Source: Bacteroidota bacterium
Lineage (GTDB): Bacteria > Bacteroidota > Bacteroidia > AKYH767-A > OLB10
Reading direction: 5' to 3'
Assembly: GCA_016699635.1 (NCBI GenBank)
Contig: CP064983.1
Coordinates: 2,267,331-2,331,330, forward strand
Length of the DNA: 64,000 nt
The notes below the pieces were generated by a model that worked only from the letters and a program-made list of their open reading frames with translations, had not been told where the DNA came from and did not search any database. Shown here in pieces: positions 29,532 through 36,014 of the stretch. A program made the position numbers and the translations under genes. Within the stretch, counting starts at the first letter, position 1. Each line of letters opens with the position of its first letter.

Positions 29532-31724
29532 TTAATTCACAGATATACGTTGTTTTTTCAAACCGTTTACTGTCTGCACCTCAAGCATGTAAATGCCTTT
29601 AGCCGGAGCATCAAGTTTTAAACGATAGGTTCCGTTTCCGGATGGTGTTAATTCTTTGTGCATCACAACAGCACCTTTAACATCAATTACACGTACCAAA
29701 ACATTTTCTTTCAGGTCGCTTTGCGGTACAATCAATGTAAATTCTCCTTGTGATGGATTTGGGAACACCACTAAATTGTTGCTCGGTGTCATAACTTCTC
29801 TTATTCCTGTTGAAGTACATACTATCGGAAATATTGCATGTGCTACATTTAAATCCCATGAGTTAGTGGCGTCAGAATAAGCATACCAAGTGCCTGTACT
29901 AAATTGTTCATAAGCTGTGCCCGGAATGGTATTTCCATCTCTGCTGGTGTAAATAGCTAAGGTATCACCTGCATTATATGTGAAATGTACACCAACGTAA
30001 TAATTACCAACGCCAATACTTACATTCGGATTAAAATCAATAATAGTTGGTAAAGTACCTGCTGCATCTGCAGCAATCTGATCGTAAGTAACATTTACGC
30101 TTCCAATTGCAGTTCCGGGCATACCACCGGTTCCGGTTGCATCCCAAACTCGAGCACTTGCCGTTTGTCCTGTACCTGATGATGTACCAACACCAAAGTA
30201 AATCAACGCACCATCTACAGTTGTATTAGGTGTTGTGTTGGAGTATTTGTCTGCTTTTGCTTGATCTGAATAGGTGTTTTGTCCTGAAACATATCCATTT
30301 GCTGGTGTAGTGCCGGCTAAATAAACAGTAGCTGTATCGCCTACTAAGTCAAAATTTGAAATAGTGTCGCATGTAGAAGTACCACCTGCTGTAACTACAA
30401 TGTAGTTGTTCTTTGTAAGTGTATTGCTTCCATTTGAATTAGTTGCAGTTAAAGAAACATTATAAGTTCCTGCAGTCGCATAAACTATATTACTTGGATT
30501 TTGTGCTGTTGAGGATGATGGAGTTCCACCTGGGAATGACCATGACCACGATGTTGGTGAATTGCTGCTTTGATCAGTAAAGTTTACACTGCCACCGGGA
30601 GCAATAGTTGTTGTATTTGCAGTAAATTGTGCTGTTGGTCCAGCTGAAGGTGCGCTGCAACCTAGTGATGTTGCTAAGGGTGCACGGTATGTTCCGTTAG
30701 CCATTGCAATTTGCATTCTTGATTTTTGTCCTGCAGTAAACATATTCAGACATTTGTCATAACAGTAGTCCATATAGTTCATCCACATATCTCCATTTGG
30801 ACCATTATTACATGTTACTAATGGAAAAGAAGGACATGGATAAGGCGGATTTTGTCCACCATAATTTGCAGTTTGTTGTGTTGGCGTGTCAGATACATAG
30901 TCATTTCCACAATTAGCATCGCCCCAAATATGACGCAGACCTAACCAGTGACCTATTTCATGCGTTGCTGTACGGCCTTTATTGTATAAAGCATCTAAGG
31001 TACCAACACGACCAAAAGATTTATACCAAACTACTACACCATCATTGGTGGCCGTACCGTAACTTCCTGTCAAACCTGTTAATGTACTGTTTAAAGGAAA
31101 TGTAGCATGGTAAAGCAATTGATTCCCTGAAGCGGAATAATCAGGAACAACCCAAATATTTAAGTATTGTGTAGGATCCCAAATGGTTGCCGGTTTTATG
31201 GTGCCGTCAATATAGGTTTTTGTATATGGAGGTGCAGTCCAGCCTTGTGTATTTCTGTTAATACGATCAATTCCATTTGTAGGATTACCACTTGGATCAC
31301 GTTGTGCCAAACAGAAGTTGATTTCGCAATCTGCAGCTACCGCACCAAACACAGAAGGAGTTGATGTGGTGTCAGGATTTTGTCTGCGGTAATCTTCATT
31401 CAAAACTGCAATCTGAGAATTAATTTGTGCATCGCTGATGTTTTGGTTTACACCCACATTGGTTCCATTATGAATTACGTGAACAACAACAGGAATGTTG
31501 TAAACCACCTGCATTTTATTTGCATTCGGCTCTTTCATTTTAGCGGCCATCCATGTTTCATATTCCAATGGAAGTTCACCGGTTCCGCATTGACGTTGTG
31601 TCATTGTCGGCTGCTCTTTGATATTGATGCCGGCTTTTCTTTGTGCATTAGCCGAAATAATTGTTGTTGCGGCTAATAATGTTAGTAAAACTTTTTTCAT
31701 TAATAATGATTTTATAATTTTCAA
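29532..31724 (-). CDS. Secreted zinc metalloprotease, M43 (pappalysin/cytophagalysin) family, with PKD-like domain(s) and a T9SS C-terminal sorting domain
   Basis: Signal peptide. Metzincin motif HEIGHWLGLRHIWGD. Beta-rich repeat region. C-terminal Por domain (…LVVFPNPSQGEFTLIV…GIYMLEVQT…). Confidence 0.8.
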   Translation of the reverse strand: MKIIKSLLMKKVLLTLLAATTIISANAQRKAGINIKEQPTMTQRQCGTGELPLEYETWMAAKMKEPNANKMQVVYNIPVVVHVIHNGTNVGVNQNISDAQINSQIAVLNEDYRRQNPDTTSTPSVFGAVAADCEINFCLAQRDPSGNPTNGIDRINRNTQGWTAPPYTKTYIDGTIKPATIWDPTQYLNIWVVPDYSASGNQLLYHATFPLNSTLTGLTGSYGTATNDGVVVWYKSFGRVGTLDALYNKGRTATHEIGHWLGLRHIWGDANCGNDYVSDTPTQQTANYGGQNPPYPCPSFPLVTCNNGPNGDMWMNYMDYCYDKCLNMFTAGQKSRMQIAMANGTYRAPLATSLGCSAPSAGPTAQFTANTTTIAPGGSVNFTDQSSNSPTSWSWSFPGGTPSSSTAQNPSNIVYATAGTYNVSLTATNSNGSNTLTKNNYIVVTAGGTSTCDTISNFDLVGDTATVYLAGTTPANGYVSGQNTYSDQAKADKYSNTTPNTTVDGALIYFGVGTSSGTGQTASARVWDATGTGGMPGTAIGSVNVTYDQIAADAAGTLPTIIDFNPNVSIGVGNYYVGVHFTYNAGDTLAIYTSRDGNTIPGTAYEQFSTGTWYAYSDATNSWDLNVAHAIFPIVCTSTGIREVMTPSNNLVVFPNPSQGEFTLIVPQSDLKENVLVRVIDVKGAVVMHKELTPSGNGTYRLKLDAPAKGIYMLEVQTVNGLKKQRISVN

Positions 31725-31915
31725 ATAAAAATTGAGACGGTAAATCTAAAAAAAAATCAAATTCGTGCAGCAAATTCAAAAACAAAATTTGAATTTATTT
31801 CGAATTATCTTTTCAATAAATTTTTTTCATCATTTTGTTGTTTACTACTGACTTTCAATTAAACATTTATGGTCGTTTTCTTCATTTTAAGGCTTGTTTT
31901 TCTCAACTTTGTGCC

Positions 31916-32571
31916 ATGTTTAATCAGATAGGTTTAATAATTTACAAAGAATGGAAATTAGAGTGGCGCAACCGAGCCGCTATGGCCGGTCTTATGGTTT
32001 TTATTCTATCAGGTGTTTATATCAGTTATCTCAGTTTTAAGAAAATTGTAGATGTTTCGGCTTGGAATGCTTTGTTCTGGCTGCTTATTTTGTTTATGGC
32101 TGTAAATGCACTTGCAAAAGCTTCATGGCAGAATCGCGTGGTCTTCAGTTATTCTATTATTCATTTCTGAATCCTTATGCCGTAATTTTAGGAAAGATAA
32201 TTTATAATGGTTTGATGTTGTTTCTTTTCGGCATCATCACTTTTTTTATCTATGGAATTTTACTGGGTAATCCTGTGCAGGACATAGGCATGTTTATCCT
32301 TACTGTTTTATTAGGGTGCTTTGGAATTTCATCTGTGCTGACTATGATTTCCGCCATTGCATCCCGTGCAGGGCATCAGTCAAGCCTCATGGCAATTTTA
32401 GGTTTTCCTGTTTTATTGCCTTTGCTGATTGTTTTAATTCATCTTTCTAAAAATGCTATTGACGGTATTGATTTTTCAGTGAATTTAAAATACCTAACCA
32501 TGCTAACAGCTTTGAATTTACTCGTACCTTCTTTAGCCTACATTTTATTTCCCTACCTTTGGCGCGAATAA
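31916..32571 (+). CDS. ccmB: Haem exporter permease CcmB (System I cytochrome c maturation), apparent frameshift near 32100
   Basis: CcmB-family N-terminal motif (…KEWKLEWRNRAA…). Six predicted TM helices spread over the two overlapping ORFs 31835..32170 and 32062..32571. Confidence 0.65.
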
Positions 32572-32607
32572 TTATCTTCATGTTGACATTAAAGTTCTTT
32601 TTTCATC

Positions 32608-33264
32608 ATGCATAATGTCTGGAAAATTGCTTGTGTAGCATTGCTCTATTTTACACTTTTTGCAGGCTTCCTTATGCCTGTACCTGAGTTGCCTATCCTT
32701 AATGAGTCTATCAGAAATTTATATTTCCATGTAACTATGTGGTTTGCCATGATTATTCACATGGTAGTAACAATTGTTTACAGCATACGCTATTTATCAG
32801 GAGGAAAGATTCAGTATGATCTAAAAGCCGAACAGTATGCCATTACAGGAATGGTGTTTGGTATTGCAGGTTTAATTACCGGAATGATTTGGGCACGTTT
32901 CACTTGGGGTGCTTTTTGGGTTAACGATACCAAACTCAATGGTGCTGCTGCTGCCATGCTCATGTATGCAGCTTATTTTATTCTCAGACAATCAACAGAA
33001 GACGAAACCAAACGTGCCAAACTCAGTGCAGTATATTTAGTTTTTGCATTCCCACTGATGATGGCTTTCATATACATCCTGCCACGCATGACAGATTCAC
33101 TTCATCCCGGCAATGGTGGCAACCCTGCTTTTGGACAATATGATCTTGACAATCAGATGCGACTGGTTTTTTATCCTGCAATTATCGGATGGACATTGCT
33201 TGGCGTATGGATAACATCTATTCGAATAAGAATTAAAAAATTATGGAATTCTCACGAAAACTAA
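32608..33264 (+). CDS. ccmC: Haem lyase/exporter subunit CcmC (cytochrome c assembly protein family)
   Basis: Polytopic membrane protein with a tryptophan-rich periplasmic loop (…FTWGAFWVNDTKLNGAAAAMLMYA…) and two conserved His candidates in flanking loops. Located between ccmB and ccmD/ccmE. Confidence 0.7.
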   Translation: MHNVWKIACVALLYFTLFAGFLMPVPELPILNESIRNLYFHVTMWFAMIIHMVVTIVYSIRYLSGGKIQYDLKAEQYAITGMVFGIAGLITGMIWARFTWGAFWVNDTKLNGAAAAMLMYAAYFILRQSTEDETKRAKLSAVYLVFAFPLMMAFIYILPRMTDSLHPGNGGNPAFGQYDLDNQMRLVFYPAIIGWTLLGVWITSIRIRIKKLWNSHEN

Positions 33265-33470
33265 AAATACTTTTTTCTGTTTTAATGTTGGTTGCAACAA
33301 ATGTGTTTGCACAAACAGAAAGTCGACTTGACGAAACTTTCCGCAGCAATGGAAAGATTTATGTGGTAGTTGCAGTGCTTGCTGTGGTGTTAACAGTATT
33401 GTTTATTTACTTAATCAGTATTGACAGGAAATTGAAAAAGACAGAAGATAAATTGAAGAATAAAAATTAA
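33243..33470 (+). CDS. ccmD: CcmD-like small membrane protein
   Basis: 75-aa ORF with one TM helix followed by a basic tail (…VVAVLAVVLTVLFIYLISIDRKLKKTEDKLK). Position between ccmC and ccmE is typical. Confidence 0.5.
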   Translation: MEFSRKLKILFSVLMLVATNVFAQTESRLDETFRSNGKIYVVVAVLAVVLTVLFIYLISIDRKLKKTEDKLKNKN

Positions 33471-33479
33471 AAAACAGAC

Positions 33480-33863
33480 ATGAAAAAATCTTATATCATA
33501 GCAATGGTGCTCATTGCAGTTGCATTTGCTGCTATTATCAGCACAGTGAGCGACTCCGGCACCTATGCCAATTTCACTGAGGCCTCATCACATGAAGGTA
33601 AGGTATTTCATGTGGTTGGTAAACTTAACCGCGATAAGCCTTATGAATACCATCCTGAAAAGAATGCCAATCTTTTTACTTTTTATCTTTATGATAACAA
33701 TGGCAATGAAAGAAAAGTGTTGCTCAACAAAGCCAAGCCGCAAGACTTTGATAAGTCAGAGCAGATTGTAATTATTGGTAAAATGAAAGGCGAAGAGTTT
33801 ATTGCTTCTGATATTTTGTTGAAGTGTCCAAGCAAGTACGCTGACGAAGCACAAAAGAGTTAA
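33480..33863 (+). CDS. ccmE: Haem chaperone CcmE, variant form with C-x-x-x-Y instead of H-x-x-x-Y
   Basis: N-terminal membrane anchor. OB-fold body (…GKVFHVVGKLN…). C-terminal flexible tail with LLKCPSKY, Cys codon at 33825..33827. Confidence 0.65.
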   Translation: MKKSYIIAMVLIAVAFAAIISTVSDSGTYANFTEASSHEGKVFHVVGKLNRDKPYEYHPEKNANLFTFYLYDNNGNERKVLLNKAKPQDFDKSEQIVIIGKMKGEEFIASDILLKCPSKYADEAQKS

Positions 33864-33907
33864 GTTGTTTTTAGCAGAACATAACTTTAGATAAGCAACA
33901 ATCTTAT

Positions 33908-36014
33908 TTATTTTTTCCGATTTTCGAAACGGCATAAACCTTCATCAAGATATTTAGTGTAGGTTTTTATGTCAGGTGTATAACCACGTGGTTCAGCAAG
34001 AATTTTTCCCTGATGATCTAATAAAACATAGTAAGGCTGCGAGTTAGTTTTGTAAACATTGGTTTGTAAATCGCTCCATTTATTACCGATAGTTCTTATT
34101 TTTTTACCTGTTGTTGCAGAAACATATTGTTTGTCTTCCGGTAGTTGCTCCTTGTCATCAACATAAAGTGAAATGGCGCATATTTATCCGAAAGCCTTTT
34201 CAGCACTTCAGGATCACTCCACACATTGTCTTCCATTTTACGGCAGTTAACACAACTCCATCCTGTAAAATCAACCATCACCGGCTTGCCTACAGTTTTA
34301 GCGTATGCCATACCTGCATCGTAATCATGATAGCAGTTTAAGTTATGTGGACAATGATTGCTTGATTTTTCTGTTACCCATTCTTTATAAAATTCAGGTG
34401 GAGGAAAGCCGCTGATCATTCTTAATGGTGCGCCCCATATTCCCGGAATCAGATACAATGTAAATGTTAATGATATGATGGCAAACATCAGTCGGGGTAC
34501 AGTGATATGTTTTACATCGCTGTCATGCGAAAATTTTAATTTGCCTAATAAATAAAAGCCAAGCATACCAAAAATGATTACCCAGATGGCAATAAAAATT
34601 TCACGCTTCAAAAATTCCCAGTGATAAGCGAGGTCAACATTCGATAAAAATTTAAATGCCAATGCCAATTCAATAAAACCGAGTGTAACTTTTACAGTAT
34701 TAAGCCATCCACCTGATTTAGGCATGGAGTTTAACCACCCCGGAAATGCAGAGAAAAGTCCAAATGGCAATGCAAGTGCCAAAGCAAATCCTGTCATTCC
34801 TATAATTGGACCTAAATAACTTCCATTGTGTGCAGCTTCTACTAACAGTGTGCCGATAATTGGTCCTGTACATGAGAATGAAACCAATGTCAAAGTAAAT
34901 GCCATAAAGAAAATTCCTATCAATCCGCCACGGTCGGAGGCGCTGTCGGCTTTGTTAACTAACCAGCTTGGTAATACAATTTCACATGCACCAAAGAATG
35001 AAAAGCAAAAATCAGGAACACAATAAAAAATGTCATATTAAAAAAGACATTGCTTGCCGTATCGTTGAGTGCATCACTACCTAATGTAACCGTGACTAAA
35101 AATCCAAGACCTACATAAATAATAATGATAGAAATAGAGTAGATTAATGCATTCATCAACCCCTTCTGACGTGAACCACTGCGCTTTGTAAAAAAACTTA
35201 CTGTCATAGGTATCATCGGAAAAACGCAAGGTGTAAGTAAAGCTAAAAAGCCACCTAAAAATCCTGCAATAAAAATTCCGAGCATGCTTTTATCTGTGGC
35301 AGTTGATGTTGAGCCATCACCGCAGCCCGGTTCAAGTTCTGATACTTGTGCTACTTCTGTAAATACACTGTCGTTTTGTGCTGCTGCCGTTGCTGAATCA
35401 ATATGTTCCGGTGGCATCACTGCCTGTGCAGTGTCTGTAACCACAGGTGTTGTATTGTTTACAGGAATTGCAAGTTCAGTTGTAGCACACGATTTTTTCT
35501 TGCCATCATTCAAATCAAATTTAAAGTCAACATCTGTTGGTGGCAGACATTTTTCATCATCACAAGCCATAAAGGTTACAAAACCTGTAATGCTGAATTT
35601 TTTTCTTGTGTTGATTTTTATTTTCTGCTTAAACTCTGTTTCACCATGAAAAAATTTCAGTTTCATCTGAAACTGCTGATCATATACTTCTTCGGCATGA
35701 CCTTCTTTTACTTTGCCAACTGTAGTGTATTCAGGAGAATGATTAAAAGTAAAACTTGTGGGTATAGGCCCATCAGCACCATTGATGGTTTGAGAATAGA
35801 TATGAAATTTATCTACCGTTACAGCTTTTAATATCAGCGTAGCTTCACAACTGTCTGTCTGTTCAACTCTGAAACTCCACTTGGCACCTTCAAAAATCTG
35901 CGCATTACTGCCTGTGCCGAAAAATAATATGATGGCAGTTAAAATAATTCTCAAACCTTGTTGCATAGTCAAATTTAACTTCACCGGATTAAAGCCCGGT
36001 TTTAAATGTGGCAC
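33908..36014 (-). CDS. dsbD: Thiol:disulfide interchange protein DsbD (N-terminal DsbD-alpha domain, CcdA-like TM core, C-terminal thioredoxin domain), two apparent frameshifts
   Basis: Signal peptide and periplasmic domain. TM core with conserved Cys (…LLTPCVFPMIP…, …SFSCTGPIIG…). C-terminal thioredoxin CxxC (…VDFTGWSCVNCRKME…). ORFs 34959..36014 and 34096..34923 plus an unlisted reading segment down to the TAA at 33908 are collinear. Confidence 0.7.

What the first reader, a model, noticed from the sequence alone, without database searches (positions are those of the whole stretch)
33480..33863. CcmE carries C-x-x-x-Y in place of the canonical haem-binding H-x-x-x-Y
In E. coli CcmE, haem is covalently bound to the His of a C-terminal HxxxY motif. 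Here the equivalent flexible tail reads …DILLKCPSKYADE…. The Cys codon TGT is at 33825..33827 and the Tyr codon at 33837..33839, giving C116-x3-Y120. A CxxxY CcmE has been described as part of a variant System I, originally noted in archaea and some Desulfovibrio-type bacteria. In that variant system CcmH is absent and haem attaches to Cys. The gene context here fits a reduced system: ccmB-ccmC-ccmD-ccmE with no adjacent ccmA, ccmF, ccmG or ccmH. A dsbD reductant supplier is encoded convergently right next to it. Both the Cys and Tyr codons are unambiguous. They are not in homopolymers, so the indel errors found in this window (mostly homopolymer-associated) are unlikely to have created them.
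Basis: partly seen in the sequence, partly recalled or inferred. Interest (0 to 1): 0.55.

Follow-up and report, generated by a model that had tools for sequence, protein, structure and literature searches.

The report
Cysteine-type haem chaperone CcmE (System I*)

Summary
ORF 33480..33863 (+) encodes a 127-aa CcmE ending ...DILLKCPSKYADEAQKS, with C116 (TGT 33825-33827), Y120 (TAC 33837-33839), no HxxxY anywhere and no other cysteine. A family profile places K-C-PSK-Y on E. coli K-H130-DEN-Y134 and on the KCP of Desulfovibrio vulgaris CcmE. The predicted fold is a membrane-anchored OB fold whose best structural match is E. coli CcmE. CPSKY is invariant in 120/120 close homologues, in 80/80 species-representative genome loci (more than 592 hits, mostly labelled Bacteroidota) and in all 130 full-length cluster representatives. 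It is also the majority motif of the published variant "System I*". The "reduced system" reading is only partly right. No ccmH was found, but ccmF directly follows this type of ccmE in 68/80 genomes. In the window's clade ccmF has moved next to rpsP-rimM. It is in the same MAG as a near-identical ccmBCDE locus, and 1.1 Mb away on the same contig in a sister lineage. It keeps its four haem-ligand histidines and WWD motif. The dsbD adjacency is seen only in the congeneric loci examined, not in two sister lineages. ccmA remains unlocated. Verdict: a new member of a known kind, of low interest.

The parts
31916..32571 (+). ccmB (haem-exporter permease). It is split into two reading frames in the window by a 1-nt deletion at about 32115, where an A5 run reads A4.
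   Evidence: Pfam CcmB PF03379 E=7.7e-11 on the downstream part. tblastn with L001 CcmB gives 76-80% identity in two frames. The deletion shows up against intact 218-aa relatives.
32608..33264 (+). ccmC (218 aa), the haem-handling membrane protein that loads CcmE. H41 and H166 correspond to E. coli H60 and H184. The tryptophan-rich motif reads WGAFWVND.
   Evidence: Pfam PF01578 E=7.4e-15 and TIGR01191 ccmC E=2.1e-18 (below that model's cut-off). Alignment with E. coli CcmC.
33243..33470 (+). ccmD, alternative family (75 aa). It overlaps the end of ccmC by 22 nt and stops 9 nt before ccmE.
   Evidence: Pfam CcmD_alt PF20077 E=2.3e-17, 63.2 bits against a cut-off of 23.5. The same position is kept in related loci.
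33480..33863 (+). ccmE (127 aa): N-terminal membrane anchor, OB-fold domain and a short flexible tail.
   Evidence: Pfam CcmE E=4.8e-10. AlphaFold2 model with mean pLDDT 81.9, helix 3-23 and five beta strands. Foldseek best match is 8ce8_E (E. coli CcmE), followed by 1lm0, 1j6q and 2kct.
33486..33548 (+). Predicted N-terminal transmembrane anchor of CcmE (residues 3-23).
   Evidence: Helix H3-23 in the model. The sequence SYIIAMVLIAVAFAAIISTVS is hydrophobic.
33822..33839 (+). K-C-P-S-K-Y motif. C116 (TGT 33825-33827) is the predicted covalent haem attachment site and Y120 (TAC 33837-33839) the predicted haem-iron ligand.
   Evidence: The profile alignment places it on E. coli KH130DENY134 (1sr3, 8ce8) and on D. 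vulgaris KCP (2kct). It is invariant in the homologues examined.
34096..36014 (-). DsbD-type thiol:disulfide reductase, convergent neighbour. It is broken in the window by 1-nt deletions at about 34175 and 35004. The 10 congeneric loci also carry dsbD at this position. It is a candidate supplier of periplasmic reductant but is not shown to belong to the Ccm system.
   Evidence: Pfam DsbD_N, DsbD_TM and Thioredoxin_7. It is intact (686-692 aa) in congeneric loci. The deletions are located. In other lineages rplT or a DUF4397 gene occupies this position.

Best explanation
The ORF is the periplasmic haem chaperone CcmE of a cysteine-type cytochrome c maturation pathway (System I*), encoded in a ccmB-ccmC-ccmD-ccmE operon. 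The proposed mechanism follows the characterised systems. CcmC presents haem on the outer face of the membrane through its His41/His166 pair and tryptophan-rich loop. The membrane-anchored CcmE docks on CcmC. Its only cysteine, C116 in the flexible KCPSKY tail, forms a covalent bond (presumably a thioether) to a haem vinyl group, and Y120 ligates the iron. CcmD and the CcmB-containing ABC module release holo-CcmE. A CcmF encoded elsewhere in the genome then transfers the haem to CXXCH apocytochromes, apparently without CcmH.

Shown here: the identity and fold of the protein, the position of Cys116 at the His130 site, the invariance of the motif, the operon context, and the presence of an intact CcmF in a congeneric MAG and in a sister lineage. 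Inferred from homology: covalent haem on Cys116, the type of bond, the hand-over to CcmF, and the presence of ccmF and ccmA in this particular genome.
For: Identity of the protein:
- Pfam CcmE hit above the cut-off, and neighbouring hits to CcmB, CcmC and CcmD_alt.
- The profile alignment puts KCPSKY on E. coli KH130DENY134 and on D. vulgaris KCP.
- AlphaFold2 gives an OB fold with an N-terminal helix at pLDDT 82. Foldseek's best match is E. coli CcmE in the CcmABCDE complex, followed by Shewanella CcmE (rmsd 2.3) and D. vulgaris CcmE (rmsd 2.5).

Conservation of the motif:
- CPSKY is invariant in 120/120, 80/80 and 130/130 full-length homologues.
- C116 is the only cysteine (sequence).

Partner proteins:
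- CcmC keeps both His ligands.
- ccmF lies directly downstream of ccmE in 68/80 species genomes.
- In the window's clade ccmF sits after rpsP-rimM, in the same MAG as a syntenic ccmBCDE locus (GCA_018266585.1) and on the same 2.1-Mb contig in GCA_015075335.1. Paired accession series in several other assemblies agree.
- That CcmF keeps the equivalents of E. coli H173, H261, H303 and H491 and the WWD motif.

Literature:
- Cys-type CcmE from Desulfovibrio binds haem covalently and supports cytochrome c maturation in E. coli without CcmH or CcmG. CPSKY is the commonest variant motif (PMC3601427).
- The Cys of the CXXXY motif is required for haem attachment in Methanosarcina acetivorans (PMC9084895).
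Against: No biochemistry exists for any Bacteroidota CcmE in the literature I could search. Sequence similarity to the solved CcmEs is low: a single-sequence search of the PDB found no CcmE and the profile E-values are only 0.004 to 0.3. ccmF and ccmA are not in the 64-kb window. The MAG that holds ccmF is only about 89% identical to the window at the nucleotide level, so their presence in this genome is inferred. No ccmA was found next to ccmB in any related locus. ccmB is frameshifted in the window. This is most likely a homopolymer sequencing error, but a real pseudogene cannot be formally excluded. The CcmC tryptophan-rich motif differs from the E. coli consensus (WVND in place of WVWD).
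Confidence: 0.88

Rival explanations
1. A truly reduced CcmBCDE module, as the first reader leaned towards. On this view the organism lacks CcmF, and the Cys-type CcmE either receives exported haem for some purpose other than the normal CcmF route or hands it to an unknown synthetase.
For: No ccmF, ccmA, ccmG or ccmH lies in the 64-kb window. The three closest lineages all have ccmBCDE followed by an unrelated convergent gene. Six of 80 species loci also lack ccmF within at least 5.8 kb downstream.
Against: A congeneric MAG with the same ccmBCDE-dsbD-TPR-serS gene order carries an 809-aa CcmF on another contig. In the sister lineage ccmF is on the same contig as ccmE. CcmE and CcmF accession numbers pair up in at least four further assemblies. 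That CcmF keeps all four His ligands and the WWD motif.
Confidence: 0.05
2. A canonical His-type CcmE in which the true haem-binding residue is a histidine elsewhere and the Cys is incidental.
For: The protein has three histidines, H38, H44 and H58.
Against: None of them starts an HxxxY motif or lies in the C-terminal tail. H38 and H58 vary among the 28 aligned homologues, whereas C116 and Y120 are invariant. The profile alignment places C116 exactly on E. coli H130.
Confidence: 0.02
3. An artefact: a sequencing error in an error-prone assembly created the Cys codon, or the ORF is an unrelated OB-fold protein mislabelled as CcmE.
For: The window carries several 1-nt deletions that break ccmB, dsbD and serS. 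OB folds are common, and RPA and tRNA-synthetase OB domains also appear in the fold search.
Against: The same KCPSKY is present in every full-length homologue examined, with a single CPSKI exception. The ORF is full length and differs by 1-2 residues from database sequences. The Pfam CcmE hit is above its cut-off and the top structural match is CcmE. The synteny with ccmC and ccmD is conserved, and in most genomes so is that with ccmF.
Confidence: 0.01

Closest known systems
System I* CcmE of Desulfovibrio (D. desulfuricans studied functionally; D. vulgaris OB domain solved, PDB 2KCT)
   Same: Both have Cys in place of the haem-binding His, within the same CPSKY motif, which is the majority motif of the variant (PMC3601427). 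Both share the OB-fold domain: Foldseek rmsd 2.5 A over 83 columns, with KCP aligned. No CcmH was found nearby.
   Different: Sequence identity is only about 23%. The phylum is different (Bacteroidota). The companion CcmD belongs to the CcmD_alt family. CcmF is about 160 residues longer than in E. coli, through an enlarged C-terminal periplasmic region. No ccmA is linked to the operon. There is no experimental work on this clade.
Archaeal CcmE with CXXXY (Methanosarcina acetivorans C120; PMC9084895)
   Same: Both have a Cys-x3-Tyr tail. The Cys is required for haem attachment in M. acetivorans. Both pathways are streamlined and lack CcmH.
   Different: The archaeal systems lack CcmD and split CcmF into two genes. 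Here a CcmD_alt gene is present and the clade's CcmF is a single protein of 805-815 aa.
Canonical E. coli CcmE (H130-DEN-Y134; PDB 1SR3, 8CE8)
   Same: The architecture is the same: N-terminal anchor, OB fold and flexible C-terminal tail. The gene order ccmB-C-D-E is the same. The Tyr is at +4.
   Different: His is replaced by Cys. The protein is shorter (127 against 159 aa). ccmA, ccmF, ccmG and ccmH are not in the operon. According to PMC3601427 neither system tolerates swapping His and Cys, so the two are not interchangeable.

Membership tests
CcmE (Pfam PF03100) | Match to the family model above its curated threshold | tested here: met
   E=4.8e-10 and 40.1 bits against a cut-off of 24.6, covering profile positions 14-98 of 99. 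The NCBIfam proteobacterial equivalog models are hit only weakly, 27 bits against a cut-off of 126. This is expected for a divergent clade.
CcmE (Pfam PF03100) | N-terminal membrane anchor followed by an OB-fold domain | tested here: met
   The AlphaFold2 model has helix 3-23 and a five-strand barrel with pLDDT above 90 for residues 31-110. The Foldseek top hit is 8ce8_E, followed by 1lm0, 1j6q and 2kct.
CcmE (Pfam PF03100) | Flexible C-terminal tail carrying [H/C]-x3-Y at the position of E. coli H130/Y134 | tested here: met
   The profile alignment gives illKCPSKY against vlaKHDENY (1sr3, 8ce8) and lmtKCP (2kct).
CcmE (Pfam PF03100) | Encoded together with ccmC and ccmD | tested here: met
   ccmB-ccmC-ccmD_alt-ccmE are on one strand with overlapping or near-abutting ends. 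The same order holds in related loci.
CcmE (Pfam PF03100) | Covalent, transient haem binding | not testable with these tools
   This needs haem staining or mass spectrometry of the expressed protein.
System I* (Cys-type Ccm pathway) | Cys replaces the haem-binding His of CcmE; CPSKY is the majority motif | tested here: met
   C116-PSK-Y120. The motif definition comes from PMC3601427.
System I* (Cys-type Ccm pathway) | A CcmF haem-transfer protein with WWD motif and four His ligands in the same genome | tested here: inconclusive
   CcmF is not in the window. An intact one is present in a congeneric MAG with identical ccm-locus gene order and on the same contig in a sister lineage. For this genome its presence is inferred.
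System I* (Cys-type Ccm pathway) | CcmH absent (frequent, but per PMC3601427 not defining) | tested here: inconclusive
   tblastn with E. coli CcmH gave no hit in the window or in the 98 related loci then held. The whole genome was not searchable.
System I* (Cys-type Ccm pathway) | CcmA ATPase partner of CcmB | tested here: inconclusive
   No ABC ATPase lies anywhere in the window. None adjoins ccmB in related loci. The nearby ATPases there look like fused exporters or short stand-alone ABC ATPases rather than CcmA, judged from sequence only.
Canonical System I (His-type) | His at the haem-binding position of CcmE (HxxxY) | tested here: not met
   Cys occupies that position and there is no HxxxY anywhere in the protein.

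The most novel reading that the evidence does not exclude
The Bacteroidota Cys-type pathway could be a mechanistically distinct sub-type of System I*, not just another host of it. Four observations point that way. The operon never carries ccmA. CcmC has a clade-wide W-to-N change in the core of its tryptophan-rich haem-binding motif (WVND). CcmD belongs to the separate CcmD_alt family. CcmF has an enlarged C-terminal periplasmic region that might stand in for CcmH. If so, haem loading or release of holo-CcmE may work differently, for example without a dedicated ATPase.
Probability: 0.1. Interest if true: 0.5.

Novelty: new member of a known kind. Interest (0 to 1): 0.2.

Why it matters
On its own it matters little. 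The Cys-for-His CcmE has been known since 2006, has been tested in Desulfovibrio and Methanosarcina, and these Bacteroidota proteins are already labelled CcmE in public databases. The by-product is modestly useful. The CPSKY form is the only form found here in a CcmE family mostly labelled Bacteroidota: more than 592 species-representative genomes, including cultured Chitinophaga and Albibacterium. The 2011 System I review names delta-proteobacteria, Chloroflexi and Firmicutes but not this phylum. Genetically tractable Bacteroidota could therefore serve as models for an open question about System I*: how a normally stable thioether between haem and CcmE is made and then broken.

Tried and rejected
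- A single-sequence phmmer search of the PDB found no CcmE. Only the family profile did.
- tblastn of the window with CcmF from three Bacteroidota lineages, and with E. coli CcmA, F, G and H, found nothing. The genes that flank ccmF in relatives (DUF2520, HAD, UbiA, Maf, EamA) are also absent from the window.
- No ORF of at least 80 aa in the window contains CXXCH, so the window offers no client cytochrome.
- The search for ccmA next to ccmB or ccmE in related loci turned up only fused permease-ATPase exporters (L022, L027, L030) and short stand-alone ABC ATPases. I did not classify the latter against a family model and did not take them for CcmA.
- The promoter and terminator scan of 31600-34200 gave counts no higher than shuffled sequence, with nothing informative.
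- Literature searches for Bacteroidetes together with CcmE, CcmF or System I returned nothing relevant. Goddard et al. 2010 (PMC2906280) is not held.
- My first attempt to find the clade's CcmF by matching the 'longest contig' value in the homologue list failed. The cluster-member listing solved it.
- I rejected three readings: a sequencing-error origin of the Cys, a His elsewhere as the true ligand, and a non-CcmE OB-fold protein. See the rival explanations.

Full report
**1. The observation**

ORF 33480..33863 on the + strand encodes 127 residues ending ...GKMKGEEFIASDILLKCPSKYADEAQKS. In the DNA, TGT is at 33825-33827 and TAC at 33837-33839, so the protein has C116 and Y120. Neither codon is in a homopolymer. 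The three histidines (H38, H44, H58) do not start an HxxxY motif. C116 is the only cysteine in the protein.

**2. Is it CcmE, and is the Cys at the haem position?**

- Pfam CcmE (PF03100) matches residues 36-122 at E=4.8e-10, above the gathering score. NCBIfam's proteobacterial CcmE equivalog models match only weakly.
- A single-sequence search of the PDB found no CcmE.
- A profile of 28 family members (alignment A1) did find CcmE. It aligned the consensus "illKCPskY" with "lmtKCP" of the Desulfovibrio vulgaris CcmE OB domain (2kct, E=0.004). It also aligned it with "vlaKHDENY" of E. coli CcmE (1sr3 and 8ce8, E=0.24-0.31). C116 therefore sits on H130 and Y120 on Y134.
- An AlphaFold2 model (mean pLDDT 81.9) shows an N-terminal helix (residues 3-23), a five-strand barrel and a low-confidence tail.
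- Foldseek against the PDB ranks E. coli CcmE in the CcmABCDE complex first. Shewanella CcmE (rmsd 2.3 A) and D. vulgaris CcmE (rmsd 2.5 A) also rank high, among other OB folds.

**3. How common is the motif?**

- All 120 best homologues, of 2945 with E<=0.001, carry CPSKY. Those that carry a name are called CcmE of Bacteroidia or Bacteroidota.
The 80 loci kept are mostly labelled Bacteroidota: Flavobacteriales, Chitinophagales including cultured Chitinophaga species, Saprospiraceae, Sphingobacteriales, Bacteroidales and Albibacterium. A few MAGs carry labels from other phyla. All 80 have CPSKY.
- Among the best 150 representatives of 50%-identity clusters, 130 have CPSKY. Of the other 20, 19 are fragments or frameshifted sequences and one reads CPSKI. 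No His-type member appeared.

The Cys is thus a fixed family character of a CcmE family mostly labelled Bacteroidota, not a peculiarity of this window.

**4. What is known**

The 2011 System I review (PMC3601427) describes "System I*". In it, the CcmE of archaea and some bacteria has Cys in place of the haem-binding His. The Desulfovibrio operon matures cytochrome c in E. coli without CcmH or CcmG, and its CcmE binds haem covalently. CPSKY is the majority motif, found in 25 of 36 bacterial genomes examined. About one third of such systems still have CcmH, so absence of CcmH is not defining. The review names delta-proteobacteria, Chloroflexi and Firmicutes, but not Bacteroidetes. In Methanosarcina acetivorans the Cys of CXXXY is required for haem attachment (PMC9084895). 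My literature searches found no paper on Bacteroidetes CcmE. The curated families CcmD_alt (PF20077 and TIGR04391), which match the neighbouring gene, show that database curators have recognised an alternative CcmD family.

**5. Context in the window**

The operon is:
- ccmB, 31916..32571;
- ccmC, 32608..33264;
- ccmD_alt, 33243..33470;
- ccmE, 33480..33863.

ccmC and ccmD overlap, and ccmD stops 9 nt before ccmE. Upstream, on the other strand, is an M43 peptidase. In related loci its homologue carries a type IX secretion tail domain. Downstream, convergent, is a DsbD-type reductase, then a TPR protein and serS.

CcmC keeps the two His ligands (H41 and H166, corresponding to E. coli H60 and H184). 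Its tryptophan-rich motif reads WGAFWVND where E. coli has WGTWWVWD. The same W-to-N change is present in the three other Bacteroidota CcmC sequences I aligned.

The window contains no ccmF, ccmA, ccmG or ccmH, no ABC ATPase, and no CXXCH-containing ORF.

**6. Is the system reduced?**

No.

- Across the 80 species loci, ccmF starts within 1.5 kb downstream of ccmE in 68 and within 10 kb in 2 more. It is absent from at least 5.8 kb of downstream sequence in 6, and 4 loci are too short to tell.
- Relatives whose CcmE is 70-71% identical to the window's over the full alignment have ccmE-ccmF or ccmBCDEF.
- The three closest lineages (98%, 89% and 83% CcmE identity) all end the operon at ccmE, each with a different convergent neighbour: dsbD, a DUF4397 gene, or rplT.
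- Searching with a neighbouring lineage's CcmF found a CcmF clade at 70-73% identity. These genes are not next to ccmE but follow rpsP-rimM, and are followed by the same DUF2520-HAD-UbiA genes that follow ccmF elsewhere.
- The cluster-member listing ties this CcmF clade to the window's CcmE clade. The paired NCBI accession series are HCI58481/HCI58698, HMU77976/HMU77099, HMX97007/HMX97290, HMW10134/HMW10339, KXK45977/KXK45403 (Bacteroidetes bacterium OLB10) and MBS1764920/MBS1765025.

Two links are direct. First, contig JABTUO010000001.1 of GCA_015075335.1 carries ccmE near 0.85 Mb and ccmF near 1.98 Mb. Second, MAG GCA_018266585.1 carries a CcmE that differs from the window's at 2 residues, in a locus with the window's exact gene order, and carries CcmF on another contig. 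That MAG is about 89% identical to the window over 9.8 kb, so it is congeneric rather than conspecific.

The CcmF in question (P0126, 809 aa) keeps the equivalents of E. coli H173, H261, H303 and H491 and a GGFWAWDPVENAS motif.

The most economical reading is that ccmF was translocated away from ccmE in an ancestor of this clade. The pathway is a complete System I* apart from ccmA, which I could not locate.

**7. dsbD**

The neighbour has DsbD_N, DsbD_TM and thioredoxin-like domains and is intact (686-692 aa) in congeneric loci. Its adjacency to ccmE is present in all 10 congeneric loci but not in the next two lineages. I therefore treat it as a plausible but unproven supplier of reductant. 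A single free thiol on a periplasmic chaperone would benefit from a reducing pathway, but nothing here shows the link.

**8. Sequence quality**

Against the intact congeneric loci the window has 1-nt deletions at:
- 32115 in ccmB, where an A5 run reads A4;
- 34175 and 35004 in dsbD;
- 38579 in serS.

Each breaks a gene that is intact in the relatives. None affects the ccmE coding sequence.

**9. Mechanism, novelty and score**

The mechanism I commit to, with its shown and inferred steps, is set out under the best explanation, at confidence 0.88. Three rivals are weakly supported or refuted: a truly CcmF-less module, a His ligand elsewhere in the protein, and an artefact.

This is a correctly observed member of a known variant (System I*), in a phylum where that variant is the rule. 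The exact protein family is already annotated as CcmE. Interest is low (0.2).

The residual novelty is the possibility that the Bacteroidota version is a distinct sub-type. The points in its favour are the absence of a linked ccmA, the CcmD_alt family, the WVND motif in CcmC and the enlarged CcmF. I give this about 10%.

Noticed in passing
window 32115; 34175 and 35004; 38579: Single-base deletions relative to intact congeneric loci split ccmB (an A5 run reads A4), dsbD (twice) and serS. They look like long-read sequencing errors rather than pseudogenes.
   Followed up: yes
window 32890..32931 (CcmC residues 95-108): The CcmC tryptophan-rich 'WWD' motif reads WARFTWGAFWVND. E. coli W125 is replaced by Asn here and in the three other Bacteroidota CcmC sequences aligned. 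I did not check whether this goes with the Cys-type CcmE in other phyla.
   Followed up: partly
related loci L005-L095; window as a whole: No ccmA-like ATPase adjoins ccmB in any related locus that carries ccmB, and the 64-kb window has no ABC ATPase at all. The ATPase partner of CcmB in this phylum remains unidentified here.
   Followed up: partly
L090 10001-12430; L099 3001-5424; L112 3001-5430: In the window's clade ccmF has moved away from ccmE. It now sits after rpsP-rimM but keeps its usual downstream neighbours (DUF2520, HAD, UbiA). It is 1.13 Mb from ccmE on contig JABTUO010000001.1.
   Followed up: yes
P0126 / L090 (CcmF), residues about 545-809: Bacteroidota CcmF is 801-817 aa among full-length hits, against 647 aa in E. 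coli. Most of the extra length is an enlarged C-terminal periplasmic region followed by a final hydrophobic segment. It could conceivably replace CcmH functions, but this was not examined.
   Followed up: no
L005 8051-9667; L014 between 3576 and 5260: In one lineage (L005) a 538-aa gene with a type IX secretion C-terminal domain is inserted between ccmC and ccmD. L014 has a gap of similar size at the same place, whose content I did not check.
   Followed up: no
window 29532..31724 (-): An M43 metallopeptidase lies divergently upstream of ccmB. In related loci its homologue also carries PKD repeats and a type IX secretion tail domain. This neighbour is conserved in the window's clade (L001, L095, L100-L109).
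   Followed up: partly
L022, L034, L040, L045, L046 (record titles): Contigs carrying Bacteroidota-type CPSKY ccmE, most of them with ccmF, sit in MAGs labelled Rhizobium, Bifidobacteriaceae, Akkermansia, Competibacteraceae and Synechococcus. These are probably binning contamination or mislabelling.
   Followed up: no
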